Below, piece by piece: positions 8,631 through 35,353 of a DNA stretch of 52,390 nt. The translations under genes and the position numbers were made by a program. The stretch spans positions 1-52,390 of the forward strand of contig CAYHAI010000012.1 of the NCBI GenBank assembly GCA_964354585.1, in the 5' to 3' direction. The notes beneath the pieces were generated by a model. It was not told where the DNA came from, did no database searches, and saw nothing but the letters and a program-made list of their open reading frames with translations. Position 1 is the first letter of the stretch; every line of letters begins with the position of its first letter. The stretch comes from an uncultured Planctomycetales bacterium (GTDB lineage: Bacteria; Omnitrophota; Gorgyraeia; Gygaellales; Profunditerraquicolaceae).

Positions 8631-9629
8631 CTAAGTAAGTTTTATAGCTCGCATTGTCTTGATATTATAATATCTGATATCATCCATTGAATTGGGAATC
8701 TTATTTTGCTTAAAGGCCTCTCTCAAATCCTTTACTGCCTCTTCGATTGTATGCTTAGGCAGGAAACCTAACTCGCGTTTAATTTTCTCCGAAGAAATAT
8801 GATACGAACGGTTATCGTCAGTGGGTTTAATAACTATCTCTAGGTTCTTGTCCACAATATTACGGACAATCTCTGCCAACTCAATGACTTTTTTGTTTTC
8901 GTATCCCGTATTAAAAATCTGGCCATCAACTGCTGCATCCGGCCATTCTAAAGCCTTAATGTAAAGTTCGGCCATATCTTCTATATGGATATTCGGACGC
9001 CTCTGCTGACCTCCGAATACGGTGATTTTTTTGTTATTCACTGCCTGGTTAGTAAGGATATTTACGGTCAGGTCCAGTCTCTGCCTTGGGGAGTAACCAC
9101 ACACTGTTGCCGGCCGTACAACCAGAACGACAAATCCCGGCGCGCGTTCTTTAAGCAATATCTCTTCGCAAAGCGCCTTATATTTGGAATAATCTGTCAA
9201 CGGTTCCAAAGACATATCTTCTGTGACATTATCAGTATCTTTAACGCCATAGACACTGGAGCTTGAGGCGTAGATAAAACGGCGCACCCCATTTTTTTTG
9301 GAAATATTAACGACATCAATAAAGGCATCGTAGTTTATGGACTTACCCAGTTGTGGATCAAGCTCAAAACTCGGGTCATTGGAAATGCAGGCCAGATGAA
9401 TCAGGGCATCACAACTCGGGATGACCTGTTCTAAAAGCGGCGAATTGCGAATATCGCCCTTAATTTGCTCTAAGTTTGGATCATCTTTTACTGCCCCTAA
9501 AACATCTTCTCCAAAAATATACAAATCCAGCACCTTGACATGGTATCCCTTCTTTAACAACTTAGGCACTAATACCGCACCCACATACCCGGCTCCGCCA
9601 GTAACTAAAATATTTTTTAACTTATGCAT
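8631..9629 (-). CDS. NAD-dependent nucleotide-sugar epimerase/dehydratase (extended SDR)
   Basis: TGGAGYVG, ASSSSVYG, YSKYK, RPATVCG.SPRQRLDL. Confidence 0.9.
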   Translation of the reverse strand: MHKLKNILVTGGAGYVGAVLVPKLLKKGYHVKVLDLYIFGEDVLGAVKDDPNLEQIKGDIRNSPLLEQVIPSCDALIHLACISNDPSFELDPQLGKSINYDAFIDVVNISKKNGVRRFIYASSSSVYGVKDTDNVTEDMSLEPLTDYSKYKALCEEILLKERAPGFVVLVVRPATVCGYSPRQRLDLTVNILTNQAVNNKKITVFGGQQRRPNIHIEDMAELYIKALEWPDAAVDGQIFNTGYENKKVIELAEIVRNIVDKNLEIVIKPTDDNRSYHISSEKIKRELGFLPKHTIEEAVKDLREAFKQNKIPNSMDDIRYYNIKTMRAIKLT

Positions 9630-19454: not shown

Positions 19455-19787
19455 TCATCCCGTACCTTTGATAAATTCATTTTTATTCTTTTCTTTGAAT
19501 ATCTCCAAAGGTGCGGGATTCAAGGCTTTTATTTGATTCAGGCTATTCTTTATTCTAAGTTTTAAGTATGCGTATGCTCTACCAAAGGATTTAAGAGATC
19601 TCTCGCGTATCTTAGCATCTTCTAATGAAATAAAAGTCTCGCAATAGACTAAATTCCAGGGTAGGTATTTCCTTGTATATTGGACTAATCCTAAGTTGTG
19701 CTCCTTTAATCTTTGTTTAATATTCTTTGTATAACCAATATAAAATACACCGTTTTTCTGACTCTTTAAAAGATAAACGTGATACAT
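19455..19787 (-). CDS. Small GIY-YIG endonuclease (SLX1/UPF0213-like)
   Basis: YHVYLL...FYIGYT...RLKEHN...YT....PW.LVYCE......A..RE..LK. Confidence 0.92.
   Translation of the reverse strand: MYHVYLLKSQKNGVFYIGYTKNIKQRLKEHNLGLVQYTRKYLPWNLVYCETFISLEDAKIRERSLKSFGRAYAYLKLRIKNSLNQIKALNPAPLEIFKEKNKNEFIKGTG
19458..19518. mobile_element. Nested 61-bp MITE-like copy with the same ends
   Basis: Ends TCCCGTACCTTTG (19458-19470) and CAAAGGTGCGGGA (19506-19518), again flanked by direct TTCA (19454-19457 and 19519-19522). Confidence 0.7.
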
Positions 19788-23736: not shown

Positions 23737-23765
23737 ATTTTAGCATATTCTTGTGATGTTATCAA
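23737..23765 (-). promoter_or_regulatory. Putative sigma70 promoter for wzc and downstream glycan genes
   Basis: Minus strand TTGATA-17 nt-TAAAAT, with TG in the extended -10 position. Confidence 0.55.
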
Positions 23766-25510
23766 TAACAAAATAAATCTAACCCTATCTTCTCTACTCT
23801 TAACTGATGGTTAAGATAATTCTGGTATTGAATATTATTCCTTAAGAGCTCTTCATGTGTGCCCATATCAATCTTATCAGGACTATTTAGGAAAAATACT
23901 AAATCTGTTCTTTTTATGGCGGAAAAACGATGCGATACAATTATAATAGTAGTATCTCTCAGTGAAACCATCATATTATCTATTATCCTTGCCTCTATCT
24001 GGGCATCTACCGAGGAAAGCGCCTCATCTAAGATTAGAATCTTAGGTCTTTTAATCACTGCCCGGGCAATGGCAATGCGTTGCTTCTGGCCCTCGGAGAT
24101 TTTACAGGCATTCTCTCCAATAATTGTATCGCAGCCCAAAGGCAAGTTATTGATAAAATCATCAATACAGGCAATCCTAGCTGCCTCTACTATTTCTTTA
24201 AAACTCGCATCTGGATTCCCATATCTGATATTATTTGACACTGTATCATTCCATAAATATGGCTCCTGAAGCACTACGCCAATTTGCGCGTATAAGGATT
24301 TTGATTTAATAAGATTTATATTGCCTCCATCAATGATTATCTGGCCACTCAGAGGTTTATAAAGTCTTAAGATTAAATTAAGTATCGTTGTCTTTCCACA
24401 ACCCGAAGGGCCAACCAAGGCAATAAAAGAACCACCCTCGATATAAAAATTTAGGTTCTGCAAAACCATCTTATCCTGTCGGTAACCAAAGGTCACATTT
24501 CTAAATTCTATCTGGCCTTTTAAAAAGGTAATTTCTTTGGTATATTTATCTTCTATAGAGTCAAGCTTGGTTTCTAATATGGAATCTAACCTCTCGCAAG
24601 AAACAAGATCCAAAGATACTTGCTGGAAGAAATATGCCAGCGAACTTTGTAACCCTGATAGCTGATTTAAATAAAGGGTTATTGCGCTAAGGCTTCCTAA
24701 AGTCATTTTGCCCTTGATTATCTGATAACCGCCATAAAAAACAATTAGGCCTAAAATTATCCGCTGGGCTAAACTGTTGGCAAATCCGGATATCACTCCT
24801 AATCTTGTATTTATTAATCCAAATCTAATATTTTCTATCAATCCTTTTATATATCGTCTGGTCTCATATTTTTCTTTTCCCAATGCCTTTACTAAATGAA
24901 TATGTGATAATACTTCCTGTAGGCTCTTAAAAATCTCCCGTGAATTTTCTATCAATCTCCTCATTATTTTCTTTGCTCTGCGGGTAAAATAATAAGGGGT
25001 AAGATATAAAAAAGGTATAAGCGCTAAAGCCAACAAGGCAATCTTGTAATCTAAATAGAACACAATCGCCAAAATAAGTAATGACCTAGGTATGAGTGGG
25101 ATAGCCTGTGGCAACACATCAGTAATAAATGAAGTAAGCCGGTCTATGTCATAATTAATCGTATAGAGGTGCTCGCCAGTAGAGCTATCTTGAAAAAATC
25201 CATAAGGAAGACGCTGTAATTTATTAAAAACCTTACAATTTAAATCAAGATTTATCCGCAACCTGATATAATTTGTTAAATAATTACTTAATCCGCCAAT
25301 AAGACCATTTAAAATAAATATGCTTCCTCCAATAGAAACTATGATTATAAATAATCTTAAGTCTCTATTCCCGTAGGCTTTATCAATAATAAGTTTAGTC
25401 AAATAAGGGTTAACCAAGCCTAAGGCCATAGTAATGCCGCTTAAAAACAATACAAGAACTTCTCTCTTCCAAAAAGGAAGTAGATATCTATAAAACTTAA
25501 GGTATTTCAT
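23762..25510 (-). CDS. ABC exporter, fused permease + ATPase (peptide/MsbA-like), no C39 peptidase domain
   Basis: N-terminal 6-TM domain, GPSGCGKTT, ISEGQKQRIAIARA, LILDEA, SHR. Confidence 0.92.
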   Translation of the reverse strand: MKYLKFYRYLLPFWKREVLVLFLSGITMALGLVNPYLTKLIIDKAYGNRDLRLFIIIVSIGGSIFILNGLIGGLSNYLTNYIRLRINLDLNCKVFNKLQRLPYGFFQDSSTGEHLYTINYDIDRLTSFITDVLPQAIPLIPRSLLILAIVFYLDYKIALLALALIPFLYLTPYYFTRRAKKIMRRLIENSREIFKSLQEVLSHIHLVKALGKEKYETRRYIKGLIENIRFGLINTRLGVISGFANSLAQRIILGLIVFYGGYQIIKGKMTLGSLSAITLYLNQLSGLQSSLAYFFQQVSLDLVSCERLDSILETKLDSIEDKYTKEITFLKGQIEFRNVTFGYRQDKMVLQNLNFYIEGGSFIALVGPSGCGKTTILNLILRLYKPLSGQIIIDGGNINLIKSKSLYAQIGVVLQEPYLWNDTVSNNIRYGNPDASFKEIVEAARIACIDDFINNLPLGCDTIIGENACKISEGQKQRIAIARAVIKRPKILILDEALSSVDAQIEARIIDNMMVSLRDTTIIIVSHRFSAIKRTDLVFFLNSPDKIDMGTHEELLRNNIQYQNYLNHQLRVEKIGLDLFCY

Positions 25511-25540: not shown

Positions 25541-26665
25541 TTACCCCAGATGCGCTAATGCACAAAACCATCTGACTCTTCCCTCTAAATCTCCTGTCTC
25601 CAATAGTGCTTTTCCCGGACAATTAAAACAGGTGTTTCTGATGGAACAGCTCTGACATTTAGAATTATTAGCAAAATATCGTGTTCTTACCCAGTCTAAA
25701 ACTTTTTTCTGGGCTTCTCCCACATCTTCCTTAAGCAGATTTATCTTAGGCTTCCTAATGCAGTCACAAGGGAATGTATTTCCATAAGGGTCAATATAAA
25801 CTCCGTCTCCGCCTCCGATAGCACAGCGGAATAATTCGTGGTTCCTGCCTGCCGGCAGGCATGGCGTGGGGCGTGGTTGGTGGTTCGTCAATAAATCACG
25901 ATCATCAATTAACGATTTCTTATTTCCATTTAAACCCAAAACTTCCTGTGGTGAAATTCTTAAATTAGCAGGAGCCAAATCTCGGTTTAATCGACTATGC
26001 AGGAAAATACCCGGTCTAAATTTTAAGCCTGAACTTTCCACAAATTTTCTTATCCGGGGTAGCTCTCTAAAGTTATCTCTCGTAACCTGGGTCTTAATCT
26101 TTAAGGGCAGCTTGGCTTTTAAAATTAGATTTATTCCTCTCATTACTTTATAAAATGAACCTTTGACTTGAGATATCTTCTCATATAAATCTTGCGTAAC
26201 TGCATTTAGGGTAATCTCAATAACAAAGGGAGGCCTGCCTCTTAAATACTCAGCTATCCTTCTATTCATAGAATAGCCATTAGTAAATATAGTGATAATA
26301 AAACCTTTATTCTTTGCATACCCATATAATTCTAAAAAATCTTCTCGGGTCAAAGGGTCTCCTCCGGTAAAACATAACCATAACATACCTCGGTTATAAA
26401 CCTTATCTAAAATGAGTTTTGCCTCTTGGGTATTCAATTCTCTCCGAATGAATCTCGCTCTATTATAGTAATCACTATAACAGTGTTTGCAATGAAGTTC
26501 ACAACCAAAGGTCAGTTCGAACTGGCAAACATTAGGTCTTCTATTTTGCCAATTCTTTTTGTGAAATTTTAAACTAAAATGTTTATAAGGAATTATTCTC
26601 ATTGGCCTACTGACATCTACATTGCCGACTAAGAATGAATTTGTATTACTAAGATACCTCCGCAA
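25541..26665 (-). CDS. Radical SAM/SPASM protein 3 (likely start 26602, MRIIPY)
   Basis: CELHCKHC, FTGGDPL, FTNG; SPASM FRCAIG...IDPYGNTFPC...CQSCSIRNTCFNCPG...FC. Confidence 0.92.
   Translation of the reverse strand: MRRYLSNTNSFLVGNVDVSRPMRIIPYKHFSLKFHKKNWQNRRPNVCQFELTFGCELHCKHCYSDYYNRARFIRRELNTQEAKLILDKVYNRGMLWLCFTGGDPLTREDFLELYGYAKNKGFIITIFTNGYSMNRRIAEYLRGRPPFVIEITLNAVTQDLYEKISQVKGSFYKVMRGINLILKAKLPLKIKTQVTRDNFRELPRIRKFVESSGLKFRPGIFLHSRLNRDLAPANLRISPQEVLGLNGNKKSLIDDRDLLTNHQPRPTPCLPAGRNHELFRCAIGGGDGVYIDPYGNTFPCDCIRKPKINLLKEDVGEAQKKVLDWVRTRYFANNSKCQSCSIRNTCFNCPGKALLETGDLEGRVRWFCALAHLG
25837..25885. repeat. Heptamer array (CGTGGTT-like) interrupted by a 16-bp perfect palindrome TGCCTGCCGGCAGGCA, inside the radical SAM gene
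   Basis: Units at 25837-43, 25865-71, 25872-78 and 25879-85; palindrome at 25846-25861; encodes HQPRPTPCLPAGRNHE. Confidence 0.75.
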
Positions 26666-28298
26666 GATAATTCTTTAGCATCCACACCAGATGATAAATA
26701 ATCTCTTCACTACTTATTTGTTTAAACAACTTACTCATATACTCATTTATTTCCTCAATACTCGAGTTCTGTTTTTCTCTTAAATAAAAAAGTATTAAGA
26801 AAACTATTTGGGGCACGATAAGATTTAATGGAGGCACTGCTGATAAAAATCTCCTTGTTTTCAATAATTGAATCCCTTCTTCTGTTACGGTTATATGGGT
26901 TTGCTTATTTAATATACGCGAAGGATAATGCTTAAAACATTCAAAATATCGGGGATAAAAAACCGGTTTTGCTTTAGGAGATGCCTTATATTTTTCTGCT
27001 TTATCTATTAATTTGTCACAAAGCATTTCATATTTAGGGATAACCAATGACCAGTCATAATTTTCAAGAACCCGCTTTCTGGCATTATATCCCAATCTTA
27101 AACGCAAGTCCTTGCGTTTAATGAGGAGCGAAAGATACTCAATCATTTTCTTTATATCTATACAAACTGATTGCCCCAAAGATAAATGCTCTACCTGAAT
27201 ATCATTAGTGAATAAATAAGTAGAATTTGATATCTCCCGGTCACACTTAGCCCAATATGTAGGGATACAAAAGCCTGTTTCATTATGTATAACTATCTCT
27301 CTATAGCCATCCCAATCGGAAACAACCACAGCTAAACCTGAAGCCATAGCCTCAATGACGGTTAAACCGAATGACTCCTGCAGGCTATCGCTCGGTGAAA
27401 CAAAGATATCGCTTGCAGCGTATAATAAATATTTTTCTGCCTGGGAAAGATTTAAGAAAAATTTGATATTATGCAAAATACCTAAATCATTTGCCATCTT
27501 CTTTAGTCTTACGGCATAATTACCTTGAAAATTTTTACCTGCAAGCACAAGTAAAATATTTTTGTTTTTAGTTAACAGGTTCTTAAAAGCAAAAAGCACT
27601 GGGTAGAGGTCTGCTTTATCAGAAATCGAGAAACGACCGACATAAAGAATAATGATTTTTTTGTCAGGTAATCGCAGCTTTTTACGAGACCCATCCTTAT
27701 TATTTTTCATATAATCTTCGCTATTTATCCCCAAGGGCAGACAGTCTAACCTTGCTTTATAATTGAGGTTTATAGACATTTTTTTAAATATATTTTGCTC
27801 TATCAATCTATGTATTTTCTTTACAGACTCCAAATTTGACTTACTAACGCATATAATAGAATCAAAAGGATGTAAGTCAGAAATCATATTATAAAAAAAA
27901 TAGTGACCAAGTAATTCAGCATAACTTACAGTATGGCTCACGCCACAGATAGGAAAATACCTTTTTGCATAAATACTGCGCAAATTAGCTATATTAAATA
28001 TTGCCGGAGTACTAAAGGTTAAAAAGATTAAATTTTTTGCATTCTTTAAAAATAAAGGAAGTTGAATAATCTTTTCAATTTTTACCCTTTCATTATTTAT
28101 ATAAGGAATTACCTCTTTGTGCAAAGGATACTTTTTACTATTTTCTGGAAGGATAAAAAAATGATACTCATCAAATTTTCCAAATCGGATTAAGTTTTTA
28201 TAAAAATCGCTTGTTGCCACCCATGCCCCATATAAACCTGCTTTGCTTGAGGATTCCCTAAGATTCCCCATGAATTCATTTGTTACAAATATTCTCAT
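26649..28298 (-). CDS. GT4 glycosyltransferase with C-terminal helical (winged-helix/RRE-like) extension
   Basis: LYVGRF...K, DIFVSPSDSLQESFGLTVIEAMASGLAVVVSDWDGYREIV; extra ~110 aa after the GT-B fold. Confidence 0.85.
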   Translation of the reverse strand: MRIFVTNEFMGNLRESSSKAGLYGAWVATSDFYKNLIRFGKFDEYHFFILPENSKKYPLHKEVIPYINNERVKIEKIIQLPLFLKNAKNLIFLTFSTPAIFNIANLRSIYAKRYFPICGVSHTVSYAELLGHYFFYNMISDLHPFDSIICVSKSNLESVKKIHRLIEQNIFKKMSINLNYKARLDCLPLGINSEDYMKNNKDGSRKKLRLPDKKIIILYVGRFSISDKADLYPVLFAFKNLLTKNKNILLVLAGKNFQGNYAVRLKKMANDLGILHNIKFFLNLSQAEKYLLYAASDIFVSPSDSLQESFGLTVIEAMASGLAVVVSDWDGYREIVIHNETGFCIPTYWAKCDREISNSTYLFTNDIQVEHLSLGQSVCIDIKKMIEYLSLLIKRKDLRLRLGYNARKRVLENYDWSLVIPKYEMLCDKLIDKAEKYKASPKAKPVFYPRYFECFKHYPSRILNKQTHITVTEEGIQLLKTRRFLSAVPPLNLIVPQIVFLILFYLREKQNSSIEEINEYMSKLFKQISSEEIIYHLVWMLKNYLAEVS

Positions 28299-28304
28299 TT
28301 ATCT

Positions 28305-29873
28305 TTATTTATATTCATCTGACACCAGATAACCCAAATCCACTAATTCCTGAACTATGGCAATCTGCTCTTTGTCTTGAGGAATAATTAAATATTCATC
28401 TGGTTTTAAGTAACGGGCGCACTTCACTAAAGAATTCCATAATTTTTTGGGATAGCGCCTAATCCTTGGCCCAGGATATCCAAATTCCATGAGTGCCTTT
28501 TCTTTATCCCAAAAGGCAATGCGGAAAAACCCGCGCCAAATACTATTTTTTTCTACTTTGGGCGGCGCGTTCATAGCTGAATATATTCCCTGGGCAACGG
28601 CAAAGGCATAATGTAAAGGTCCATCACCATAGACATAAGCTCCGGGAGGCAATTCTTTTCTTGTATCCACAAAATAATTAAAAACCCTGTTATCAACCAC
28701 ATTAAATAACTGTCTTTTTATATCTCGCTCAGTTTTTTCTAAATCCAGGGGTATCTCGGGAGGCCTCTTTATCAGATATCTTACGGCTTTCTTTAAATTA
28801 TCTTTTAAAATTTTGGGGTTACATTCTTTGAGCACAAAATTACGGTATTGTTGGTTGGATAGCCAATTTCGTTCAAGGATTGCCCTTTGTAAAAGAATTC
28901 TAAATTGCCTTAAGCTAAAGCGACAGCCAAAAAGCGTAGGATAGGTATCCACCCCTTTCCAGGGCATATTATCTGCTAAGAGCCTTAGGCCACAAAAATT
29001 AGTGGTCACCACCGGCAGTCCGCAGGACATTGCCTGGCGTGGAGTAACCCCAAAATCCTCATCTGGCTGGATAGATAGATTGACAAACAAATCTGCTGAC
29101 CAAAATAAATCCCTTAACTCCTGCTTATTCTTAGCCTCCTGAAAACGCAGCCAGGGCCTGGGCCTATTGCGCAATATTTCCGCATTAAAAAAGTGGGAAA
29201 ATGTCTTATGCTGGGCAAAAGAAAAAGCCAACCCAAACTCTTCTTCAATATTACCTGCTAAGGTAAACACAATATTATCTGAAATAGGCCAGATATCCAA
29301 GGCGCGGATTAACTGACAAATTCCCTTAGTCACAATCCATCTACCGGCATAAACAATATGTAACTGCCCTTTTCTTATCCCTTGTTTCTTACGTGCCAGC
29401 AAACGCTGATGGTTATTAGGTAGAGTAAAATAATTAGTATCTACTTTGTTACTAAAAACCGCTATCTCCGGCGCAAGACTACCCAAGTAAGACCTTATCC
29501 GATTCATTTGAAATTGGGTTGAAACAAGGTCAACCTGAGCAGAGGGCAGATATTTAAAGTTATAAAGATGCTCTGGCAACAATAACGAACCTAAAGAAAG
29601 CCAAAGTAACCGATGGGGCACTTTGGATAGGAGATTTCTTTCTGATAAAAAGTGTACTGATACAAATATCGCATCTGGTTTTCCCAGAAGCATCTTAAGT
29701 CTTTTCTCTTCTAATTTTTCATTCAGTGGAATAATTTTGCCAAGCTGGCTAAGACAGCTAAAAAACCATTTTTTATACGCGATGACCGCAGTCCCTTCGT
29801 CAACCTTGAACGGGCCTTTTTTGTTCTTCTTAAAAACACTCAAGTAGTCTTTTTCTAAGATATAAAATTTCAT
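28305..29873 (-). CDS. GT4 glycosyltransferase with C-terminal extension (RRE-like tail)
   Basis: VYAGRW...KG, DLFVNLSIQPDEDFGVTPRQAMSCGLPVV; tail ends ...QELVDLGYLV. Confidence 0.8.
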   Translation of the reverse strand: MKFYILEKDYLSVFKKNKKGPFKVDEGTAVIAYKKWFFSCLSQLGKIIPLNEKLEEKRLKMLLGKPDAIFVSVHFLSERNLLSKVPHRLLWLSLGSLLLPEHLYNFKYLPSAQVDLVSTQFQMNRIRSYLGSLAPEIAVFSNKVDTNYFTLPNNHQRLLARKKQGIRKGQLHIVYAGRWIVTKGICQLIRALDIWPISDNIVFTLAGNIEEEFGLAFSFAQHKTFSHFFNAEILRNRPRPWLRFQEAKNKQELRDLFWSADLFVNLSIQPDEDFGVTPRQAMSCGLPVVTTNFCGLRLLADNMPWKGVDTYPTLFGCRFSLRQFRILLQRAILERNWLSNQQYRNFVLKECNPKILKDNLKKAVRYLIKRPPEIPLDLEKTERDIKRQLFNVVDNRVFNYFVDTRKELPPGAYVYGDGPLHYAFAVAQGIYSAMNAPPKVEKNSIWRGFFRIAFWDKEKALMEFGYPGPRIRRYPKKLWNSLVKCARYLKPDEYLIIPQDKEQIAIVQELVDLGYLVSDEYK

Positions 29874-29901: not shown

Positions 29902-30822
29902 TTATATTTTTCTTACAAATTCAATAACCTTTTTATTATTTACAAATCCCAACTTAAAACAAGTAACATTCTTTACCAAATCCTCGCAAAAACAAACTAC
30001 ATTTTCTAAACACGCCTTATCCCAGAAAGTAGGAAAAAGCGCAGGATAAAGCATGCTAAATGCCTCTTTCTCACAAATACGCCGCAGTCTATTTTGGCAG
30101 GCATGATAAATAAAGAATAACTTATCCAGACGCGCTGATTCAATGCGTGACAGAAGATAATCGCTGAATTCTCCGTGCCAGGGTGAGCCATAGATAAGAA
30201 ATTTACCTTTTAATCTGCGCACAATTATGCGGTCATCATTAAGGACCATTGCCCGGCTATGCTTGTGCCAAAGCCTGGCGGTAGTACTTTTACCCATACC
30301 AGATTTACCGGCAAAAAGTAAACCCCTGCCATCTAAATCCCTTACGCCAATACTATGCACAAAGATTCCTTTTTTCCTCAAGGCAAAATAATTTATTAAA
30401 AGAACCTGTAAAAAGTCATAAATAATATCTGCAATATTCCAGACCCGGCCTTTGTTCTTCTTAGGTAATAGATAAGCGGTTACTGTGTCAAATGTCTGAT
30501 TTACCAACATAACCTGTTGTTTATTTTCTAAAGGGCAGCGGTAAATATAAGCATTATCTTTTTTTTGCAGTCTCCAGCTCTCCTGGTGTCCATCGGGGTG
30601 AAAGGTGGTAAAGATATCTCTGGCTTTACCAATATCCGGCGATTTATCCACTATGTCAATCTTAATGGCAATATCCGGCTTAGCTTTTCCTTTATATAAA
30701 AAGCTATTAAACCTTTCGGGAATCTGCAGTCTTTGTCCTTTTTTGCTAAGTTGTTCATAACTAAAATTACTCTGTAGCTGAATGATTGTGTCAGCGATTT
30801 TTAGCTTAACCTCTGTTTTCAT
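29902..30822 (-). CDS. HPr-kinase-like P-loop protein (ScmC/HPr-rel-A type; putative peptide kinase)
   Basis: VHSIGV...GLLFAGKSGMGKSTTA...VLNDDRIIVR...YGSPWHGE. Start moved to MKTEVK (30822) to remove the overlap with the upstream gene. Confidence 0.8.
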   Translation of the reverse strand: MKTEVKLKIADTIIQLQSNFSYEQLSKKGQRLQIPERFNSFLYKGKAKPDIAIKIDIVDKSPDIGKARDIFTTFHPDGHQESWRLQKKDNAYIYRCPLENKQQVMLVNQTFDTVTAYLLPKKNKGRVWNIADIIYDFLQVLLINYFALRKKGIFVHSIGVRDLDGRGLLFAGKSGMGKSTTARLWHKHSRAMVLNDDRIIVRRLKGKFLIYGSPWHGEFSDYLLSRIESARLDKLFFIYHACQNRLRRICEKEAFSMLYPALFPTFWDKACLENVVCFCEDLVKNVTCFKLGFVNNKKVIEFVRKI

Positions 30823-30835
30823 ATTCTTTTCTTCT

Positions 30836-31930
30836 CTATTCTGCCCGGTATTGGCTTTCTGGATCGCAGGCAGTGAAGGTTCTATTATAAAGCAAGGCCT
30901 GCCCCGGCCACCATTTGCAATCATTGCAGAATTGGCATTTATCGCATTGATAATTCTTATCTGGCTTTATAGAGGCAACTAACTCTTTTAATCTCTCCCA
31001 CGCATATTTCAAACCATCTTTCGGATGTACGATGTGCGATGTGCGATGTACGATGTACTTATTCAATATTTTATATTTAGGATAATCTATCATCAAACAC
31101 ATCTTCAACTCGCCATATGGAGTTATCGCTGCTTGACTTACTCCTACCCCGCATTTAAATAGAGTATTGTGTATTGTGTATTGTGTATTGTGTTCTGATT
31201 TTTGAAAATTCAAACCGCAGGCTTCAAATTTGTCTTTACTGGTGACCTGGCGACCTGGTGACCTGGTGACTATTTGTTTCCTAAATCCTCTATGCCGATA
31301 CGGTTCTCTATCGCCATCTAAACGCGGTGAAAGCCTATCATCTAAACGATGCAAAGCGCCTAAAGAAGCTGCAAAATCCTGAATTTCTTTTATCTCCTTC
31401 TCATTTTCCTTTAAAAGGCAACTCTTAAATCCCAGCCTGACTCCATTTTTATGCAAAAGCCGGATGGCCTTAAATACATTATCGCAAGAGCCCTTAACTC
31501 CCGTAATCTGCTCAAAAGCCCTTTTACTTATAGCCGGGATAGTAATATCTACCTTATTTGGGTTGAGCTGCTTCAATTCCTCGGCTTTGGCTTTATCTAT
31601 GAGCGAACCATTGGTATAAATAATAATCTGGAAACCTTTCTTCTTGGCATACCAGAGAATCTTGAATATATCCTCTCTTAAAAATGGCTCGCCGCCGGTA
31701 AATCCCAAATAAAAACAGCCTAAATCTTTAAGTTGGTCTAAAATAGAAAATACCTCTTTTGTGGTAAGTTCTACCCTGGCTTTCTTTTGATAACTGGCTG
31801 GAACATAACAGTGTCTACATCTAAAATGACATCTATAGGTTAATTCAAATATTACCCGCAAAGGGAAACTATCTTTCCTTGCTGTTTTATGTATCTGTTG
31901 CCAAAAATCGTGGTAGGATCTAACTTCCAT
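30836..31930 (-). CDS. Radical SAM/SPASM protein 2
   Basis: ELTYRCHFRCRHCY, FTGGEP, YTNG; SPASM FKCGVG...ITPYGELKMC...CDKCQFCNDCKWWPG...C. Confidence 0.92.
   Translation of the reverse strand: MEVRSYHDFWQQIHKTARKDSFPLRVIFELTYRCHFRCRHCYVPASYQKKARVELTTKEVFSILDQLKDLGCFYLGFTGGEPFLREDIFKILWYAKKKGFQIIIYTNGSLIDKAKAEELKQLNPNKVDITIPAISKRAFEQITGVKGSCDNVFKAIRLLHKNGVRLGFKSCLLKENEKEIKEIQDFAASLGALHRLDDRLSPRLDGDREPYRHRGFRKQIVTRSPGRQVTSKDKFEACGLNFQKSEHNTQYTIHNTLFKCGVGVSQAAITPYGELKMCLMIDYPKYKILNKYIVHRTSHIVHPKDGLKYAWERLKELVASIKPDKNYQCDKCQFCNDCKWWPGQALLYNRTFTACDPESQYRAE
31024..31058. repeat. Heptamer tandem repeat GATGT(A/G)C x5 inside radical SAM 2
   Basis: gatgtac gatgtgc gatgtgc gatgtac gatgtac; encodes YIVHRTSHIVH. 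Confidence 0.9.
31162..31194. repeat. Heptamer tandem repeat G(A/T)GTATT x4.5 inside radical SAM 2
   Basis: gagtatt gtgtatt gtgtatt gtgtatt gtgtt; encodes HNTQYTIHNTL. Confidence 0.9.
31239..31270. repeat. Octamer tandem repeat CTGG(T/C)GAC x4 inside radical SAM 2
   Basis: ctggtgac ctggcgac ctggtgac ctggtgac; encodes VTRSPGRQVTS. Confidence 0.9.
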
Positions 31931-32993
31931 TAATCTGTTCTGCAGTTGCTTTAGCTAATTCGCAATAATAAGGAACCGGCGCCTCTTCATCACCGGTTTC
32001 TAAATACGCCCTTGCTGGACAATGATAGCAAATCGGTCTTAACCGGCAATCCTTACATTTAGAGTTAGTTTTAAATTTTTCATTTAAAAGTTTAGGAAAT
32101 ATATTATAGAAACCTTCTCTAAAGGCAGTGTCTTTTAGATTAACGCTAAACTTATCTGAGAAGCCACAGAACTTAAGATAACCGTAAGGGTTAATGTCAA
32201 AATGCTGCATCCATGAATTACACTGATAAAGAAACTGCCTATCTCTTCTTAACTTAGGCAAAGTGCAATCTAAACTCTCTTGATATTCCTTCCAGATATC
32301 CGGGTCTTGCTTTTTTACCTCTAATAACTCCGCAGGCGAAAGCCTATAATTACAAGGTATTTTATCACGGTTGTATCTAGGGTATATCATAGGGTCATAT
32401 TGAAAACGGTATCTATTTCGGGGTAAATTATCAAAGGCTTTTTCTGTAAAAGCCTTTATCCGGCCAATCTGGGACTTATTTTGCTTAAGGCAGTTAGCTT
32501 TTAATATCAAGGGCGATTTTTTTTCTTTCAACTGGCTGATTGTATCCATAACCTTAGCAAAAGAACCGGGAACCCGAGTAATTGCTTCATAGGTTTTTTG
32601 GGTTATGCCATTTAAGGTAATTTCTATAGAATAAGGCGGAGATTTTAGAAAATAATTAATCATCTGGGCTGTAAGTGCCTGGCCATTGGTAAGCAGGGTG
32701 ATAAAAAATCCTTTTTTCTTGGCATAAGAATAAATCTCCAGGAAATCCTTTCTTATTAAGGGGTCTCCTCCGGTAAGGCACAGGCACAAGCAACCCTCTC
32801 TTTGTATCATATCGAGGATCCGCTTCCATTCTGCAGTGGTTAGTTCCCGGCGTGTTGATTCTAAGCCTTTACAATAGCAATGGACGCAATTTAATTTACA
32901 TCTATAAGTGAGTTCAATCTGGCCATTTAAAGGAAAGTGTGCTTTTTTATTAAAGAGGTCATAGAAAAAATACCCGGCCTGCTTTTTGTTCAT
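31920..32993 (-). CDS. Radical SAM/SPASM protein 1
   Basis: ELTYRCKLNCVHCY, LTGGDPL, LTNG; SPASM YQCNSW...INPYGYLKFC...CKDCRLRPICYHCPA...YYC. Confidence 0.93.
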   Translation of the reverse strand: MNKKQAGYFFYDLFNKKAHFPLNGQIELTYRCKLNCVHCYCKGLESTRRELTTAEWKRILDMIQREGCLCLCLTGGDPLIRKDFLEIYSYAKKKGFFITLLTNGQALTAQMINYFLKSPPYSIEITLNGITQKTYEAITRVPGSFAKVMDTISQLKEKKSPLILKANCLKQNKSQIGRIKAFTEKAFDNLPRNRYRFQYDPMIYPRYNRDKIPCNYRLSPAELLEVKKQDPDIWKEYQESLDCTLPKLRRDRQFLYQCNSWMQHFDINPYGYLKFCGFSDKFSVNLKDTAFREGFYNIFPKLLNEKFKTNSKCKDCRLRPICYHCPARAYLETGDEEAPVPYYCELAKATAEQINGS

Positions 32994-33134: not shown

Positions 33135-33377
33135 TTAGGAAGCGGCAACGGTAGTGTTCTGTTTATATGTAGAGGCAGTCCCACTCGCAGCATCGCAGGT
33201 TACATGCGTCTCACCCACCTTCGGACTCGTAATCCCGCAAGGCCTATATTGAGACGCTCCCTTGTTAGCTGCTACTGTTGTCCAGCTCTGACCAGTATAG
33301 CAGGCGCACTGCAATACCGCCTGTTCAGGGTTGAGTTTTACCCGCGTGATTACCGGCTCAAACTTCTTCTTATACAT
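33135..33377 (-). CDS. Putative RiPP precursor peptide (80 aa)
   Basis: Strong SD (GAGGTGA) before ATG; basic leader-like N-terminus KKKFEPVITRVKLNPEQAVL; core with Cys24/26/47/61 and 16 Ser/Thr; directly upstream of radical SAM/SPASM genes. Confidence 0.8.
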   Translation of the reverse strand: MYKKKFEPVITRVKLNPEQAVLQCACYTGQSWTTVAANKGASQYRPCGITSPKVGETHVTCDAASGTASTYKQNTTVAAS

Positions 33378-33415: not shown

Positions 33416-34201
33416 TTAATATTTGTCAAATAAGTCCTTGATAATTGTCTTGGCGTTCACTACGAGATTGGCTTCATCTTCATTAAAAAGAAAAGGCCTT
33501 AATCCCTTCGCAAGCCTTTCCAATTCCGAAAGACTAAATTCATTAATCGTCTCGAGCATAACTTCTCTAGGCTCTTGCTTAATACCATTGGCTTCTAACA
33601 CATCTTTATTGATCGGGAATTTTTTAGAAAGCATAATAATAATATCATAGATATGTCTTCCCTTCTTAATATGCCTTAAGGCGTCTATCTTTTCCGCAAA
33701 GACTGAGCCTTTAGACATTACCCTAACTGGAAAAATCTCGCCAAAACTTGAAACGTTAGTTGTCTCTGTCTCCAGTTCAAATATAGGTCTGTTGGCTTCC
33801 AACTTTACCATAAGATTTCCTCTTTTATCCATTATCTTGTAATATTCTAAGACATTTTTGAATACAAATACGCTTGATGAAAGTCTTCCTCTATGCTGGA
33901 AAGCAACCTCAGGATGAATATTCTCTCTTTTTAATTCTTCTTTGACAAATTCTGCAGCCTTTTGGAATTCTACCTTATTGACTTCGGTAATGTTGAAATC
34001 TAAATCTTCGGAAAACCTCTTAAAACCATATACTAATCTTAACGAGGTTCCACCTAAAAAATAAAATTTATCATGCCATTTACTTACGTAAAGATATTTG
34101 AGCATAAGGGTCTGAATATATTCTCTCATTATGCCGCGCATCTTATTGATGGGCAGATTATTAATCTTGGCCTGCTCTATTAGTGCTTCATAACCGAGCA
34201 T
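33416..34201 (-). CDS. AbiEii/AbiGii-family nucleotidyltransferase (type IV TA toxin)
   Basis: FLGGTSLRLVYGFKRFSEDLDF, AEKIDAL...RHIYDI. Confidence 0.9.
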   Translation of the reverse strand: MLGYEALIEQAKINNLPINKMRGIMREYIQTLMLKYLYVSKWHDKFYFLGGTSLRLVYGFKRFSEDLDFNITEVNKVEFQKAAEFVKEELKRENIHPEVAFQHRGRLSSSVFVFKNVLEYYKIMDKRGNLMVKLEANRPIFELETETTNVSSFGEIFPVRVMSKGSVFAEKIDALRHIKKGRHIYDIIIMLSKKFPINKDVLEANGIKQEPREVMLETINEFSLSELERLAKGLRPFLFNEDEANLVVNAKTIIKDLFDKY

Positions 34202-34808
34202 AAATATCCTTTATTGTATTATAAGTTAATTTATTAAGATAAGAAGCGTAATTATAGAGTTTTGCCTTTTTAAATTTTTTAAGCACGGATAAATCAAGGC
34301 GCTCTTCTTCTACATTAATTTTATGACCATCATATAGTTTGAAATAAACATAATCTGCAAACGCCTTTTCTGGTTCAGCAATTTTAATCTTAAATTTATT
34401 CTCTTCTATAATTCTATAGCCAATGAAGGCATTTGTCTTTATGCTTCTGTATCTAAAAAAACCATGGTAATTCTTAAATTCCCGCGTGGGTTTTGTGGTA
34501 ATAGAAGTAACGCCAAAGGCGACTTCCGGAATTATATTGTAGATAGAAAGCGCGGTCTCTAATGATACATAAGATGGGCTATATAACTTATTTGCCAAGA
34601 ATAAATCAGGGATATTTTTGCTTTCTGGATAGATTATCTCATAAAGTCCATTTTTTAGAACTCTAATCCAATTACGTTTCTTCCAATAGTGAATTTGCTG
34701 TCTTAAAATCTCTTTTTTTTCTTCTGGAAAAAGACAGTATAAATCCTGAGTTGAAAATAGATATAATCGGTTTTCCTCTAACTTCTTATACAGATCAATA
34801 TATTTCAT
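34188..34808 (-). CDS. AbiEi-family antitoxin / transcriptional regulator (type IV TA)
   Basis: N-terminal wHTH (LKNGLY), LYSPSYVSLETALSIYNIIPE, TSITT, IAEPEKAFADY; overlaps the toxin start. Confidence 0.9.
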   Translation of the reverse strand: MKYIDLYKKLEENRLYLFSTQDLYCLFPEEKKEILRQQIHYWKKRNWIRVLKNGLYEIIYPESKNIPDLFLANKLYSPSYVSLETALSIYNIIPEVAFGVTSITTKPTREFKNYHGFFRYRSIKTNAFIGYRIIEENKFKIKIAEPEKAFADYVYFKLYDGHKINVEEERLDLSVLKKFKKAKLYNYASYLNKLTYNTIKDIYARL

Positions 34809-34842: not shown

Positions 34843-34871
34843 ATTATAACTAATAAAATCTAATTTGTCAA
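34843..34871 (-). promoter_or_regulatory. Consensus sigma70 promoter of the abiE pair
   Basis: Minus strand TTGACA-17 nt-TATAAT (perfect). An imperfect inverted repeat TTATAATT...AATTATAA (about 34813-34849) overlaps the -10, as expected for an AbiEi operator. Confidence 0.8.
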
Positions 34872-35068: not shown

Positions 35069-35353
35069 TTAACCCTTAACCGCCTTTATCTCTTTTAAGT
35101 CTTTTAAGAATTTTGTTAATTCTTTATCCAGTTTTTTTTCTGTAGTGTCAAACTCTTGCAAAAGTGTCTTTTTAATCTTTTCCAGACTTCTCTTGCCGTC
35201 AATAAGTTCCCAAATCCTTGCTGCTACCTTATTCAGGGTATAAATACAGTTTATCTCATCAGATGTCTTATAAATGGGCATAAGGATTGTTTCGTCTTCG
35301 ATGGTGCGACTAACTATATTAGGGTTCTTTTTCAATACGACTGATTCCTTCAT
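35069..35353 (-). CDS. PqqD-family standalone RiPP recognition element (RRE)
   Basis: 94 aa; IVSRTIEDETILMP...IYTLNKVAARIWELIDGKRSL...FLKDLKEIKAV; strong SD GGAGGAGG. Confidence 0.92.
   Translation of the reverse strand: MKESVVLKKNPNIVSRTIEDETILMPIYKTSDEINCIYTLNKVAARIWELIDGKRSLEKIKKTLLQEFDTTEKKLDKELTKFLKDLKEIKAVKG

What the first reader, a model, noticed from the sequence alone, without database searches (positions are those of the whole stretch)
26649..29873. Two GT4 enzymes with C-terminal tails resembling the RRE/winged-helix fold: possible peptide-directed glycosyltransferases
Seen: both are 520-550 aa, well above the 370-390 aa GT4s elsewhere in this window, and both sit between RiPP enzymes. 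The tail of 26649..28298 (LILFYLREKQNSSIEEINEYMSKLF...LVWMLKNYLA) parallels the local PqqD helices (IWELIDGKRSLEKIKKTLLQEF...FLKDLKEIKAV). The tail of 28305..29873 has beta-like segments followed by ...QELVDLGYLV. The latter also has EDFGVTPRQAM in place of the usual E-x7-E motif. Known: glycocin glycosyltransferases are GT2. Inference: GT4-RRE fusions would be an unusual way to glycosylate a RiPP.
Basis: inference. Interest (0 to 1): 0.75.

Follow-up and report, generated by a model that had tools for sequence, protein, structure and literature searches.

The report
Long GT4 glycosyltransferases beside a peptide cassette
Two unusually long sugar-adding enzymes sit inside a gene set for a modified secreted peptide; their extra tails are real conserved domains, one winged-helix-like and one of unknown fold, but neither has the standard peptide-recognition fold.

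Summary
26649..28298 (549 aa) and 28305..29873 (522 aa) are GT4 enzymes with conserved C-terminal add-ons, lying head to tail between radical SAM genes.

The RiPP setting is real. An unannotated 80-aa ORF (33135..33377) belongs to a 12-member peptide family with an invariant leader and a variable core; 11 of 12 end in Ser. A PqqD protein, three radical SAM enzymes, an HprK-like P-loop protein and an ABC exporter lie on the same strand.

Tail 1 is a trait of a large ~550-aa GT4 family, present in all 80 relatives fetched. [quoted passage not shown] Sequence profiles match ArsR/MarR regulators weakly (E 0.003) and never PqqD.

Tail 2 occurs only in a small family, 45 hits in 1.84 billion proteins. 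Its model (pLDDT 82) has no significant PDB match.

In GT4-1's half of the family tree, 6 of 22 loci carry lasso, PqqD or small-peptide genes next to the enzyme; the other half has RTX proteins there.

Verdict: peptide-directed glycosylation is plausible but unproven; "GT4-RRE fusion" in the strict sense is not supported.

The parts
26649..28298 (-). GT4-1: 549-aa GT4 (GT-B) glycosyltransferase with a C-terminal tail
   Evidence: Pfam Glycos_transf_1 3.9e-36. R222, K228 and E308 are invariant, and E316 is kept in 60 of 61 relatives. 337 relatives at E<=1e-3.
26652..27005 (-). Tail 1 (GT4-1 residues 432-549). The winged-helix-like core is residues 496-548 (26655..26813).
   Evidence: AlphaFold2 on 67 tails: pLDDT 86.9; order H451-455, E468-471, H473-481, H496-509, bridge 512-513, H514-524, H530-542, E546-548. 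Profile against PDB: HlyU/ArsR at E 0.003. The tail HMM hits 80 of 80 relatives.
28305..29873 (-). GT4-2: 522-aa divergent GT4 with a C-terminal tail; the motif reads E272-x7-Q280
   Evidence: Pfam Glycos_transf_1 2.9e-14. 50 family members including itself. Only 25% identical to GT4-1 over 149 aa. Structural neighbours of an 86%-identical homologue align to residues 1-371..376 only.
28308..28748 (-). Tail 2 (GT4-2 residues ~376-522). The compact beta/alpha subdomain is residues 446-519 (28317..28538) and carries the invariant EFG-x-PGPR loop.
   Evidence: AlphaFold2 on residues 368-522: pLDDT 81.6, and 87-98 over the last ~85 residues. No Pfam, NCBIfam or PDB sequence match. No significant Foldseek match. 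45 hits in 1.84 billion proteins, always at the C-terminus.
29902..30924 (-). HprK-like P-loop protein (340 aa)
   Evidence: Weak matches, all below cut-offs: Pfam Hpr_kinase_C 4.7e-4; NCBIfam HprK_rel_B 9.2e-6 and ScmC 1.9e-5; PDB HPr kinase E 0.12. A Walker-A-like GKSGMGKST is visible in the translation.
30836..31930 (-). Radical SAM enzyme (364 aa)
   Evidence: Pfam Radical_SAM 5.1e-28. Best NCBIfam matches are NirJ, AhbC, mycofactocin and PqqE-type radical SAM/SPASM families, all below cut-off.
31920..32993 (-). Radical SAM enzyme (357 aa)
   Evidence: Pfam Radical_SAM 4.2e-22. Best NCBIfam matches are AhbD, NirJ2, PqqE and ScmE, all below cut-off.
33135..33377 (-). Candidate precursor peptide (80 aa): invariant leader ...ITRVKLNPEQAVL-x-C-x-C, variable Ser/Thr-rich core, C-terminal Ser
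   Evidence: 11 homologues. In the alignment the leader is invariant and the core variable; 11 of 12 end in Ser and 1 in Thr. GGTGA lies 5 nt before the ATG. No Pfam or NCBIfam family. Single copy in the window.
35069..35353 (-). Discrete PqqD-family protein (94 aa), the likely RRE of the cassette
   Evidence: Pfam PqqD 6.7e-14, above cut-off. NCBIfam lasso PqqD chaperone 4.3e-10, below cut-off.
25541..26665 (-). Third radical SAM enzyme (374 aa); its start overlaps the end of GT4-1 by 17 nt
   Evidence: Pfam Radical_SAM 3.6e-18. NCBIfam matches to AhbD, to the sactipeptide maturase StsB over residues 45-369, and to PapB, all below cut-off.
23762..25510 (-). MsbA/HlyB-type ABC exporter (582 aa), with no peptidase domain
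   Evidence: Pfam ABC_membrane 1.1e-40 and ABC_tran 4.4e-32. NCBIfam HlyB-, MsbA- and NHLP-type exporters, below cut-offs.

Best explanation
Both genes encode retaining-type GT-B (GT4) glycosyltransferases. They belong to a same-strand, tightly packed cassette for a ribosomally made, modified and exported peptide, and that cassette is embedded in a large glycan locus of an Omnitrophota-like genome.

Proposed pathway:
1. The 80-aa precursor is held through its invariant leader by the discrete PqqD protein.
2. The three radical SAM enzymes act on the Cys-containing core.
3. The HprK-like protein phosphorylates a Ser, most likely the conserved C-terminal one. This is by analogy with paeninodin, pseudomycoidin and LPP peptides.
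4. GT4-2 and GT4-1 then add sugars, either to that phosphate or to Ser/Thr of the core.
5. The ABC exporter removes the product.

The tails are acceptor-docking modules and not canonical RREs. Tail 1 is a winged-helix-like domain shared by a large ~550-aa GT4 family whose members repeatedly sit beside exported peptides or proteins. Tail 2 is a family-specific 150-aa domain with an invariant EFG-x-PGPR loop.

What is shown: the domain content, the conservation, the predicted folds, the gene order, the precursor family, and the contexts of relatives.

What is inferred: every enzymatic step, the acceptor, and any binding by the tails.
For: GT4 catalytic core:
- Both match Pfam Glycos_transf_1 above cut-off.
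- The R/K pair and the first Glu are invariant in both families.

Gene order:
- Same-strand packing with overlaps or gaps of 6-28 nt around both GT4 genes.
- No gene on the other strand passes any test.

Precursor:
- A 12-member family with an invariant leader and a variable core of 13-33% Ser+Thr.
- 11 of 12 members end in Ser.

Other cassette members:
- PqqD is above the Pfam cut-off.
- The radical SAM proteins begin their radical SAM domain at residues 26-50. That leaves no room for an N-terminal RRE of their own.

Tail 1:
- Present in 80 of 80 fetched relatives and never stand-alone.
- Modelled with pLDDT 86.9.

Family tree:
- FastTree on 132 rows, and IQ-TREE quick on 63 rows, both give a deepest split with support 100.
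- The window's GT4-1 falls in the half that holds all the peptide- or secondary-metabolite-type contexts.

Contexts in that half, in 6 of its 22 loci:
- L004: a lasso-type set with PqqD directly upstream of the GT and a peptide beta-hydroxylase above its NCBIfam cut-off.
- L037: PqqD directly upstream, exporter downstream.
- L003: a lasso-cyclase-like gene overlaps the GT start.
- L002: a 103-aa ORF with a ...VTGG leader and nine AYEPCNA repeats, plus a C39-ABC exporter.
- L017: two tandem Cys-rich ~63-aa ORFs just upstream.
- L001: a 90-aa Gly-rich ORF between the GT and an exporter.

Contexts in the other half:
- RTX-repeat proteins directly upstream in 6 loci and a giant PKD/matrixin protein in 1.
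- The same arrangement on a Rhodovastum plasmid.

Precedent in print (passages read):
- PMC6993621: an HprK-like kinase phosphorylates the C-terminal Ser of a RiPP, and hexoses are added on the phosphate.
- PMC13381572: the LPP peptide family.
Against: - No biochemical evidence exists, and no binding test could be run.
- The cassette lies inside a dense glycan locus (Wzc, Wzy-like, many GT2/GT4, sugar-nucleotide genes). The GT4s could therefore serve polysaccharide synthesis.
- The HprK-like assignment rests on weak P-loop matches, all below cut-offs.
- All radical SAM matches to RiPP maturase families are below their cut-offs.
- Among 80 distant relatives of GT4-1, tblastn and phmmer found PqqD in only 2, a radical SAM gene in 3-4, and an HprK-like gene or the precursor family in none.
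- Many relatives, for example in cyanobacteria and Desulfovibrionaceae, show no peptide-type neighbour.
- The small ORFs in L001, L002 and L017 match no known family.
- The GT4-1, GT4-2 and precursor hit tables share no contig length except 52390, the window's own, and one possible case of 6386 bp (P0102 and P0134). Co-occurrence outside the window is therefore unproven.
- An AbiEi/AbiEii pair separates PqqD from the precursor.
Confidence: 0.45

Rival explanations
1. Ordinary glycan-building GT4 enzymes. Both act on lipid-linked or polymeric sugars of the surrounding exopolysaccharide or surface-glycan locus. The tails serve oligomerisation, membrane or scaffold contacts. The adjacency to the peptide cassette is incidental, or the radical SAM genes also act on the glycan.
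For: - The window is dominated by glycan genes: Wzc, a Wzy/O-antigen-ligase-like protein, ABC-2 permease and ATPase, several GT2/GT4/GT-C, and sugar-nucleotide enzymes.
- One gene fuses a GT2 to a radical SAM/SPASM domain (36304..38385), so radical SAM chemistry on sugars is plausible here.
- Best NCBIfam matches of both GT4s are sugar or lipid glycosyltransferases, all far below cut-offs.
- Many GT4-1 relatives have other GTs as neighbours: a PF12000-type GT4 adjacent in 7 of 80 loci, and a second tailed GT4 in 4.
Against: - The two genes are wedged, with overlaps or gaps of under 30 nt, between the HprK-like gene and the third radical SAM gene. They lie downstream of the precursor and upstream of a HlyB/MsbA-type exporter.
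- Relatives sit directly beside PqqD, lasso genes, GG-leader or Cys-rich small ORFs, or RTX proteins in at least 13 of 80 loci.
- Tail 1 never occurs apart from this GT4 family.
Confidence: 0.3
2. Each tail is a true RiPP recognition element that binds the leader of the precursor, which would make these GT4-RRE fusions.
For:
- Tail 1 is winged-helix-like.
- L002 has a GG-leader peptide and a tailed GT4 but no PqqD was detected there.
- RRE-GT2 fusions are reported in PMC12710340 (passage read).
- One RiPP enzyme, TigE (8vpo), appears among the Foldseek rows for tail 1 at E 2.9. Its identity as a RiPP enzyme is recalled, not checked.
Against: [quoted passage not shown]
- hhalign probabilities are 0.7-5%.
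- PqqD is not among the 25 Pfam families shown (of 54 hit) for the 67 tail-1 members, and 0 of 14 tail-2 sequences hit it.
- 0 of 23 and 0 of 11 PDB profile hits are RRE proteins.
- Foldseek gave 0 hits at E<=1e-3 for either tail.
- A discrete PqqD is present in the operon and next to the relatives in L004 and L037.
- Tail 1 is equally present in the half of the family that sits beside RTX proteins.
Confidence: 0.1
3. Tail 1 is a nucleic-acid-binding winged helix that lets the enzyme regulate its own locus. This would be a moonlighting transcription factor.
For: The closest sequence-profile matches are DNA-binding regulators: HlyU/ArsR at E 0.003, plus MarR, IclR and DprA winged-helix families in individual members. 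PerR/Fur and RctB domains appear among the Foldseek rows.
Against: - All of these matches are weak.
- The wing hairpin is reduced to one short strand, and the window's protein ends 7 residues after the third helix.
- No winged-helix regulator family reaches its cut-off on the window's own tail.
- There is no precedent found for a GT-B enzyme with a DNA-binding tail: the search returned 1 paper, which was irrelevant.
Confidence: 0.05

Closest known systems
Glycocin glycosyltransferases (SunS/ThuS type, GT2)
   Same: They glycosylate Cys, Ser or Thr of a ribosomal precursor peptide inside a small cassette with an ABC exporter (PMC11912497, introduction read).
   Different: They are GT2, not GT4, and glycosylation is the class-defining first step. 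The window has radical SAM enzymes, a PqqD protein and an HprK-like protein, and its GTs carry unrelated C-terminal domains.
RRE fused to GT2 (PF00535), reported by RRE-Finder/Foldseek mining (Bregman et al. 2025, PMC12710340)
   Same: A glycosyltransferase carrying its own winged-helix-type peptide-recognition domain.
   Different: [quoted passage not shown] Here the enzymes are GT4 and neither tail meets it. The main text does not mention PF00534. The paper's supplementary tables could not be opened, so GT4 cases may be listed there.
Paeninodin, pseudomycoidin and LPP peptides: HprK-like kinase plus sugar on phosphate
   Same: The BGC holds an HprK-like kinase, a discrete RRE and an MsbA-like exporter. 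The kinase phosphorylates a Ser: the C-terminal one in paeninodin and pseudomycoidin. Hexoses are then added on the phosphate (PMC6993621 and PMC13381572, passages read). In the window's precursor family 11 of 12 members end in Ser.
   Different: Those systems use a nucleotidyltransferase-like protein (PsmN, LppN) and no recognisable GT, and they lack radical SAM enzymes. The window's HprK-like protein matches kinase models only weakly.
SynChlorMet cassette (NCBIfam ScmC/ScmD/ScmE/ScmF models)
   Same: The same four kinds of protein: an HprK-like ScmC, a PqqD-like ScmD, and two radical SAM/SPASM proteins. The window's proteins hit these models: ScmC 1.9e-5, ScmD 1.1e-6, ScmE 9.3e-22, ScmF 4.6e-23.
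   Different: All scores are far below the models' cut-offs, so this is a related but different cassette. It has a third radical SAM gene, two GT4s and an identified precursor family. No paper mentions the cassette name.
Cao24, the GT4 of the cacaoidin (lanthidin) cluster
   Same: A GT4 encoded in a RiPP cluster and proposed to add a sugar to the peptide (PMC8068269, passages read).
   Different: Its role is only proposed. No C-terminal winged-helix tail is described for it. The RiPP class is different.
ArsR/MarR-type winged-helix domains
   Same: Tail 1's last ~55 residues align to helices 2-4 and the first wing strand of HlyU (E 0.003). They are modelled as alpha-beta-alpha-alpha-beta.
   Different: The domain is fused to an enzyme, its wing is truncated, and an extra N-terminal strand and helix are present. 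No regulator family reaches its cut-off on the window's own tail.

Membership tests
GT4 (GT-B, Pfam Glycos_transf_1) | Match to PF00534 above the gathering score | tested here: met
   GT4-1 scores 124.6 bits and GT4-2 scores 53.4 bits, against a cut-off of 26.4.
GT4 (GT-B, Pfam Glycos_transf_1) | Two-Rossmann GT-B fold for the core | tested here: met
   Tested for GT4-2 only, and indirectly. The ESM Atlas model of P0124 (86% identical) has GT4 clusters as structural neighbours, with TM by target 0.67-0.76 over residues 1-371..376. GT4-1 was not modelled full-length.
GT4 (GT-B, Pfam Glycos_transf_1) | E-x7-E motif and the Arg/Lys pair of the donor site (the motif definition is recalled) | tested here: inconclusive
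   GT4-1 has R222, K228, E308 and E316. GT4-2 has R178, K183 and E272, but Q280 at the second Glu. Across its family that position is E in 32 and Q in 11 of 43.
RiPP recognition element (RRE, PqqD-like) | [quoted passage not shown] | tested here: not met
   The tail 1 model reads E-H-H-(bridge)-H-H-E, after a short N-terminal helix. The tail 2 model reads H-H-H-E-E-E-E-H-E-E-H-E. These are models of isolated tails, not solved structures.
RiPP recognition element (RRE, PqqD-like) | Sequence or profile similarity to PqqD/RRE families | tested here: not met
   - No PqqD hit for either window tail at E<=10.
- PqqD is not among the 25 families shown (of 54 hit) for the 67 tail-1 members.
- 0 of 14 tail-2 sequences hit it.
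- hhalign against a 3-sequence PqqD profile gave probability 0.7-5%. That profile is shallow (Neff 2.3).
RiPP recognition element (RRE, PqqD-like) | Structural match to solved RRE domains | tested here: not met
   Foldseek against PDB gave 0 matches at E<=1e-3 for either tail. Only one RiPP enzyme (8vpo) appears among the listed rows, at E 2.9 for tail 1. Foldseek is weak on such short domains (PMC12710340, passage read).
RiPP recognition element (RRE, PqqD-like) | Binds the leader of the cognate precursor | not testable with these tools
Winged helix-turn-helix (ArsR/MarR type) | Three-helix bundle with a short beta-sheet, order alpha-beta-alpha-alpha-beta(-beta) | tested here: met
   Tail 1 residues 496-548 read H-bridge-H-H-E at pLDDT 92-98. 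Profile hits are HlyU at E 0.003, and MarR_2 at 2.5e-6 in one member. The second wing strand is absent.
SynChlorMet cassette (NCBIfam TIGR04248-04251) | Scores above the equivalog cut-offs for ScmC, ScmD, ScmE and ScmF | tested here: not met
   Scores were 24.2 against a cut-off of 125; 28.7 against 100; 77.4 against 400; and 82.2 against 400.
TIGR04157 GT4 of the Bacteroidales radical SAM/peptide system | Score above the subfamily cut-off | tested here: not met
   GT4-1 scores 66.4 bits and GT4-2 scores 19 bits, against a cut-off of 400.

The most novel reading that the evidence does not exclude
The ~550-aa GT4 family with a winged-helix tail is an unrecognised, phylum-spanning family of peptide and protein glycosyltransferases. 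It has at least 337 members, and the tail is present in all 80 relatives examined. One half of the family decorates RTX-type or giant secreted proteins. The other half decorates RiPPs and bacteriocins.

In this window it works with a second, rare tailed GT4 and an HprK-like kinase. Together they would build a phospho-glycan on the conserved C-terminal Ser of a new, radical-SAM-crosslinked peptide class from Omnitrophota. The non-RRE tails would act as a new kind of acceptor-recognition module.
Probability: 0.2. Interest if true: 0.8.

Novelty: new variant of a known kind. Interest (0 to 1): 0.55.

Why it matters
Glycosylated RiPPs are rare, and their known glycosyltransferases are mostly GT2 (PMC11912497). 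If these GT4s act on the peptide, three things would follow:
- A large, easily recognised GT4 subfamily (about 550 aa, with the ...WLLK-x-G motif at the end) would be linked to peptide and protein glycosylation.
- This would give a new genome-mining handle for RiPP and bacteriocin loci that lack known class-defining enzymes, such as L002 and L017.
- An undescribed precursor family and cassette would be added from an uncultured phylum.

It would also show substrate-docking domains on tailoring enzymes that are not RREs. If the glycan reading is right instead, the finding is an ordinary pair of polysaccharide GTs with accessory domains.

Tried and rejected
Searches that found nothing:
- Pfam, NCBIfam and PDB sequence searches with each tail alone.
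- Tail 2 profile against PDB and Pfam.
- tblastn of GT4-2 against plasmids and phages: no match.
- Rfam (0 matches) and tRNA scan (0 genes) over the window.
- Literature searches for the cassette, for GT4-RRE fusions or for winged-helix GT-B enzymes: searches returned 0, 3, 1, 0, 0 and 1 papers, none of them describing these.

Comparisons that ruled something out:
- hhalign of tail 2 against tail 1: unrelated, probability 0.3%.
- The one long non-GT hit to tail 2 (P0216, 1676 aa) is a Big_2 repeat protein and was judged spurious. The mid-length hits are N-truncated GT4s.

Attempts that failed for lack of data:
- A deeper PqqD profile could not be built from plasmid records: 0 and 1 hits.
- ESM Atlas: the window's tail is not stored; a tail-2-only fragment has no model and no usable hit; a full-length homologue gave only GT4 neighbours.

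Analyses that were uninformative:
- Chou-Fasman averaging, hydrophobic-moment periodicity and APC-corrected mutual information on the tail alignments. The mutual information was dominated by the deep split in the family.
- The promoter and terminator scan was not above shuffled controls.

- Co-folding of GT4-2 with the precursor.
- Cluster-member accession lookup, intended to test gene adjacency in MAGs: switched off.

The neighbourhoods of GT4-2 relatives, of close GT4-1 relatives (>40% identity) and of the precursor family therefore stayed unexamined.

Full report
**What is at the coordinates**

Both match Pfam Glycos_transf_1 above its cut-off, at 3.9e-36 and 2.9e-14. They are only 25% identical over 149 residues of the nucleotide-binding half, so they are not recent duplicates.

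The other stand-alone GT4s in the window are 370 and 392 aa. The quoted strings are all present.

The E-x7-Q variant in GT4-2 is real but is not a family trait. The second position is E in 32 and Q in 11 of 43 relatives, while R178, K183 and the first Glu are invariant.

**The extra length is a conserved family trait**

GT4-1 has 337 relatives at E<=1e-3. The 61 sequences I aligned have a median length of 555 aa.

A scan of one genome per species returned 80 loci at 25-38% identity.
- 73 of the 80 encoded proteins are 520-660 aa.
- 4 are longer fusions.
- 3 are shorter; two of these start at a contig edge.
- An HMM of the tail hits all 80, plus a second tailed paralogue in 4 loci and one frameshifted piece. 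It never hits a stand-alone protein.

GT4-2 belongs to a much smaller family of 50 proteins including itself. An exhaustive phmmer search with its tail against 1.84 billion representatives found 45 proteins. The tail was always at the C-terminus of proteins of about 520 aa or of N-truncated fragments. One further hit was a spurious repeat protein.

Structural neighbours of an 86%-identical homologue in the ESM Atlas align only to residues 1-371..376. The GT-B core therefore ends near residue 375 and the rest is an add-on.

**What the tails are**

*Tail 1 (GT4-1 residues 432-549)*
- A profile of 67 tails matches the ArsR-type regulator HlyU in the PDB at E 0.003-0.006. MarR and AdcR follow at 0.16-0.41.
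- Individual members hit MarR (5 of 67), MarR_2 (4), HTH_5 (4), HTH_20 (3), IclR (3) and DprA_WH (2). No PqqD family appears among the 25 families shown, out of 54 hit.
- A profile of the 23 tails closest to the window again puts MarR and HlyU first, at E 0.06-0.3. None of its 11 hits is an RRE protein.
- AlphaFold2 on the 67-tail alignment gave pLDDT 86.9 and pTM 0.73. The elements are H451-455, E468-471, H473-481, a loop, H496-509, a bridge at 512-513, H514-524, H530-542 and E546-548.
- That order is a strand and a helix followed by the classical winged-helix order alpha-beta-alpha-alpha-beta, with the wing cut to one strand.
- Foldseek against the PDB gave no significant hit (best E 0.64; 0 of 194 at E<=1e-3). 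The rows include PerR/Fur/Zur, RctB domain 1 and a Z-alpha domain. One radical SAM RiPP enzyme, TigE, appears at E 2.9; its identity as a RiPP enzyme is recalled, not checked.
Its probability is only 0.9-5%.

*Tail 2 (GT4-2 residues ~376-522)*
- It has no Pfam, NCBIfam or PDB sequence match, either as a single sequence or as a profile.
- It is unrelated to tail 1.
- Its model has pLDDT 81.6, and 87-98 over the last ~85 residues. It shows three helices (378-392, 395-407, 422-433) followed by a compact unit: E446-448, E451-455, E460-464, E470-473, H476-484, E486-489, E493-496, H501-512, E516-518.
- The invariant EFG-x-PGPR loop lies between the third and fourth strands.
- Foldseek found nothing significant (best E 0.065, TMq at most 0.39). 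The recurrent rows are ribosomal protein L6 and the JmjC oxygenase NO66.

**The setting is a genuine peptide cassette**

The genes run on the minus strand in this order:
1. A GT2 gene.
2. A PqqD protein at 35069..35353 (Pfam 6.7e-14, above cut-off).
3. An AbiEi/AbiEii pair.
4. An 80-aa ORF at 33135..33377.
5. Two radical SAM genes.
6. An HprK-like P-loop gene.
7. GT4-2.
8. GT4-1.
9. A third radical SAM gene.
10. A HlyB/MsbA-type ABC exporter.
11. Wzc.

The 80-aa ORF has GGTGA 5 nt before its ATG. It has 11 homologues.

In the alignment the first 26 residues (M..KKF.P.ITRVKLNPEQAVL.C.C) are invariant or nearly so. The remaining 38-58 residues vary freely, hold 1-2 further Cys and are 13-33% Ser+Thr. 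11 of 12 sequences end in Ser and the other ends in Thr. That is the pattern of a RiPP precursor family. It matches no NCBIfam or Pfam model.

The radical SAM proteins start their radical SAM domain at residues 26-50. They have no room for their own N-terminal RRE, which fits a shared discrete PqqD.

The cassette resembles the NCBIfam SynChlorMet set (ScmC, ScmD, ScmE, ScmF), but every score is far below cut-off.

**What the relatives of GT4-1 say**

A FastTree of 132 rows (the window, 71 locus proteins and 60 database homologues) and an IQ-TREE quick run on 63 rows both split the family in two, with support 100.

*First half (49 rows: Proteobacteria, Cyanobacteria, Planctomycetota).* This half holds:
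- all 6 loci with an RTX-repeat protein directly upstream;
- 1 locus with a giant PKD/matrixin protein;
- 6 of the 7 loci with an adjacent PF12000-type GT4. The seventh, L074, is also in this half but was not given a context label in the trees.

A Rhodovastum plasmid shows the same module.

*Second half (83 rows).* This half holds the window's protein, all 60 database homologues and 22 loci. Six of those 22 have peptide-type neighbours:
- **L004** (Bacillus sp.): a lasso-type set. It has a B2-type protease, a lasso-cyclase-like gene, an exporter, an aKG-HExxH peptide beta-hydroxylase above its cut-off, and a PqqD protein directly upstream of the GT.
- **L037**: PqqD directly upstream and an exporter downstream.
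- **L003**: a lasso-cyclase-like gene overlaps the GT start.
- **L002**: a 103-aa ORF with a ...LEKVTGG leader and nine AYEPCNA repeats, followed by GNAT, methyltransferase, HlyD and a C39-peptidase ABC exporter.
- **L017**: two tandem Cys-rich ~63-aa ORFs just upstream.
- **L001**: a 90-aa Gly-rich ORF between the GT and an exporter.

Three more loci in this half (L007, L010, L012) lie in NRPS- or radical-SAM-type clusters.

*Results against the peptide reading.*
- tblastn and phmmer found no HprK-like gene and no member of the precursor family in any of the 80 loci. They found PqqD in 2.
- Many loci show nothing peptide-related.
- The small ORFs match no known family.

**Most likely mechanism**

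I read the two enzymes as tailoring glycosyltransferases of the peptide. PqqD presents the leader. The radical SAM enzymes cross-link the Cys-containing core. The HprK-like protein phosphorylates a Ser, most likely the conserved terminal one. The GT4s then add sugars to the phosphate or to Ser/Thr, and the exporter removes the product.

The kinase-then-sugar step rests on precedent. HprK-like kinases phosphorylate the C-terminal Ser of paeninodin and pseudomycoidin, and hexoses are then added on the phosphate (PMC6993621, passages read). A related linear family has an HprK-like kinase, a discrete RRE and an MsbA-like exporter (PMC13381572, passages read).

The tails would dock the acceptor or the PqqD-peptide complex. 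All enzymatic steps and all binding are inferred. I put this reading at 0.45.

The main rival, at 0.3, is that both are ordinary glycan GTs of the surrounding polysaccharide locus. That locus is dense with Wzc, Wzy-like, GT2, GT4 and GT-C genes and includes a GT2-radical SAM/SPASM fusion. The strict GT4-RRE reading gets 0.1, and a DNA-binding tail gets 0.05.

**Comparison with what is known**
- Glycocin GTs are GT2 (PMC11912497, introduction and section 9 read).
- RRE fusions to GT2 (PF00535) have been reported. PF00534 is not mentioned in that paper's main text, and its supplements could not be opened.
- A GT4 (Cao24) is encoded in the cacaoidin cluster, with a proposed but untested role (PMC8068269, passages read).
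- My searches found no paper on a GT4 with a winged-helix tail, on this cassette or on this leader family.

**What stayed open**
- Co-folding with the precursor was not possible.
- Full-length models were not made, because both prediction jobs went to the tails. How the tails sit on the GT-B core is therefore unknown.
- The hit tables share no contig length apart from the window's own (52390) and one possible 6386-bp contig that may carry both a GT4-2 relative and a GT4-1-family member.

Noticed in passing
window 33135..33377 (-): An unannotated 80-aa ORF is the founding member, in this window, of a 12-sequence peptide family. The family has an invariant leader (ITRVKLNPEQAVL-x-C-x-C), a variable Ser/Thr-rich core and a C-terminal Ser in 11 of 12 members. 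It matches no Pfam or NCBIfam family.
   Followed up: yes
window 33416..34808 (-): An AbiEi/AbiEii toxin-antitoxin pair sits between the PqqD gene and the precursor, as if inserted into the cassette. A 12-of-12 sigma-70-like site lies just upstream at 34871..34843.
   Followed up: partly
window 36304..38385 (-): A single 693-aa protein fuses a GT2 domain, membrane segments and a radical SAM/SPASM domain. This is an unusual architecture, and it could tie radical SAM chemistry to glycan synthesis in this locus.
   Followed up: no
window 14569..16494 (-): A 641-aa fusion of a GT4 glycosyltransferase with an ABC-2 (Wzm-type) permease, followed by the ABC ATPase at 13261..14565.
   Followed up: no
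L002 2169..2480 (+): A 103-aa ORF directly after the tailed GT4 of a Nannocystaceae MAG. It has a leader ending ...LEKVTGG and then nine near-identical AYEPCNA repeats. A C39-peptidase ABC exporter, HlyD, GNAT and a methyltransferase lie downstream. It looks like an undescribed repeat-core RiPP.
   Followed up: partly
L017 8837..9028 and 9035..9313 (+): Two tandem paralogous small ORFs with a hydrophobic N-terminus and a C-terminal ...CDC-x-S-x-G-x-x-C-x-C-x-INKNP motif. They lie immediately upstream of the tailed GT4 in an Acidobacteriaceae MAG.
   Followed up: partly
L041 9935..13345 (+): In Endozoicomonas arenosclerae the tailed GT4 is fused to a DUF4135 domain to give a 1136-aa protein. 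I recall DUF4135 as the LanM-type dehydratase domain; this was not checked. The gene follows a CesT-family chaperone gene, and a type III secretion component lies nearby.
   Followed up: no
L026, L027, L038, L043, L045, L046, L063; plasmid locus L081: In Proteobacteria and Planctomycetota the tailed GT4 repeatedly follows an RTX-repeat, DUF4214 or otherwise giant secreted protein. A PF12000-type GT4 or a type I secretion ABC/HlyD pair is often nearby. This suggests glycosylation of secreted repeat proteins.
   Followed up: partly
L051 958..4371 and L067 9899..13267 (+): The tailed GT4 is fused to TPR repeats and a CDP-glycerol glycerophosphotransferase domain, giving proteins of about 1130 aa in two Rhodospirillales MAGs.
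   Followed up: no
window 19455..19787 (-) and 42644..44374 (+): A small GIY-YIG nuclease-domain protein sits among the glycan genes. A second, weakly matching asparagine-synthase-like gene (GATase_7 1.9e-10, Asn_synthase 1.1e-6) opens the plus-strand half of the window.
   Followed up: no
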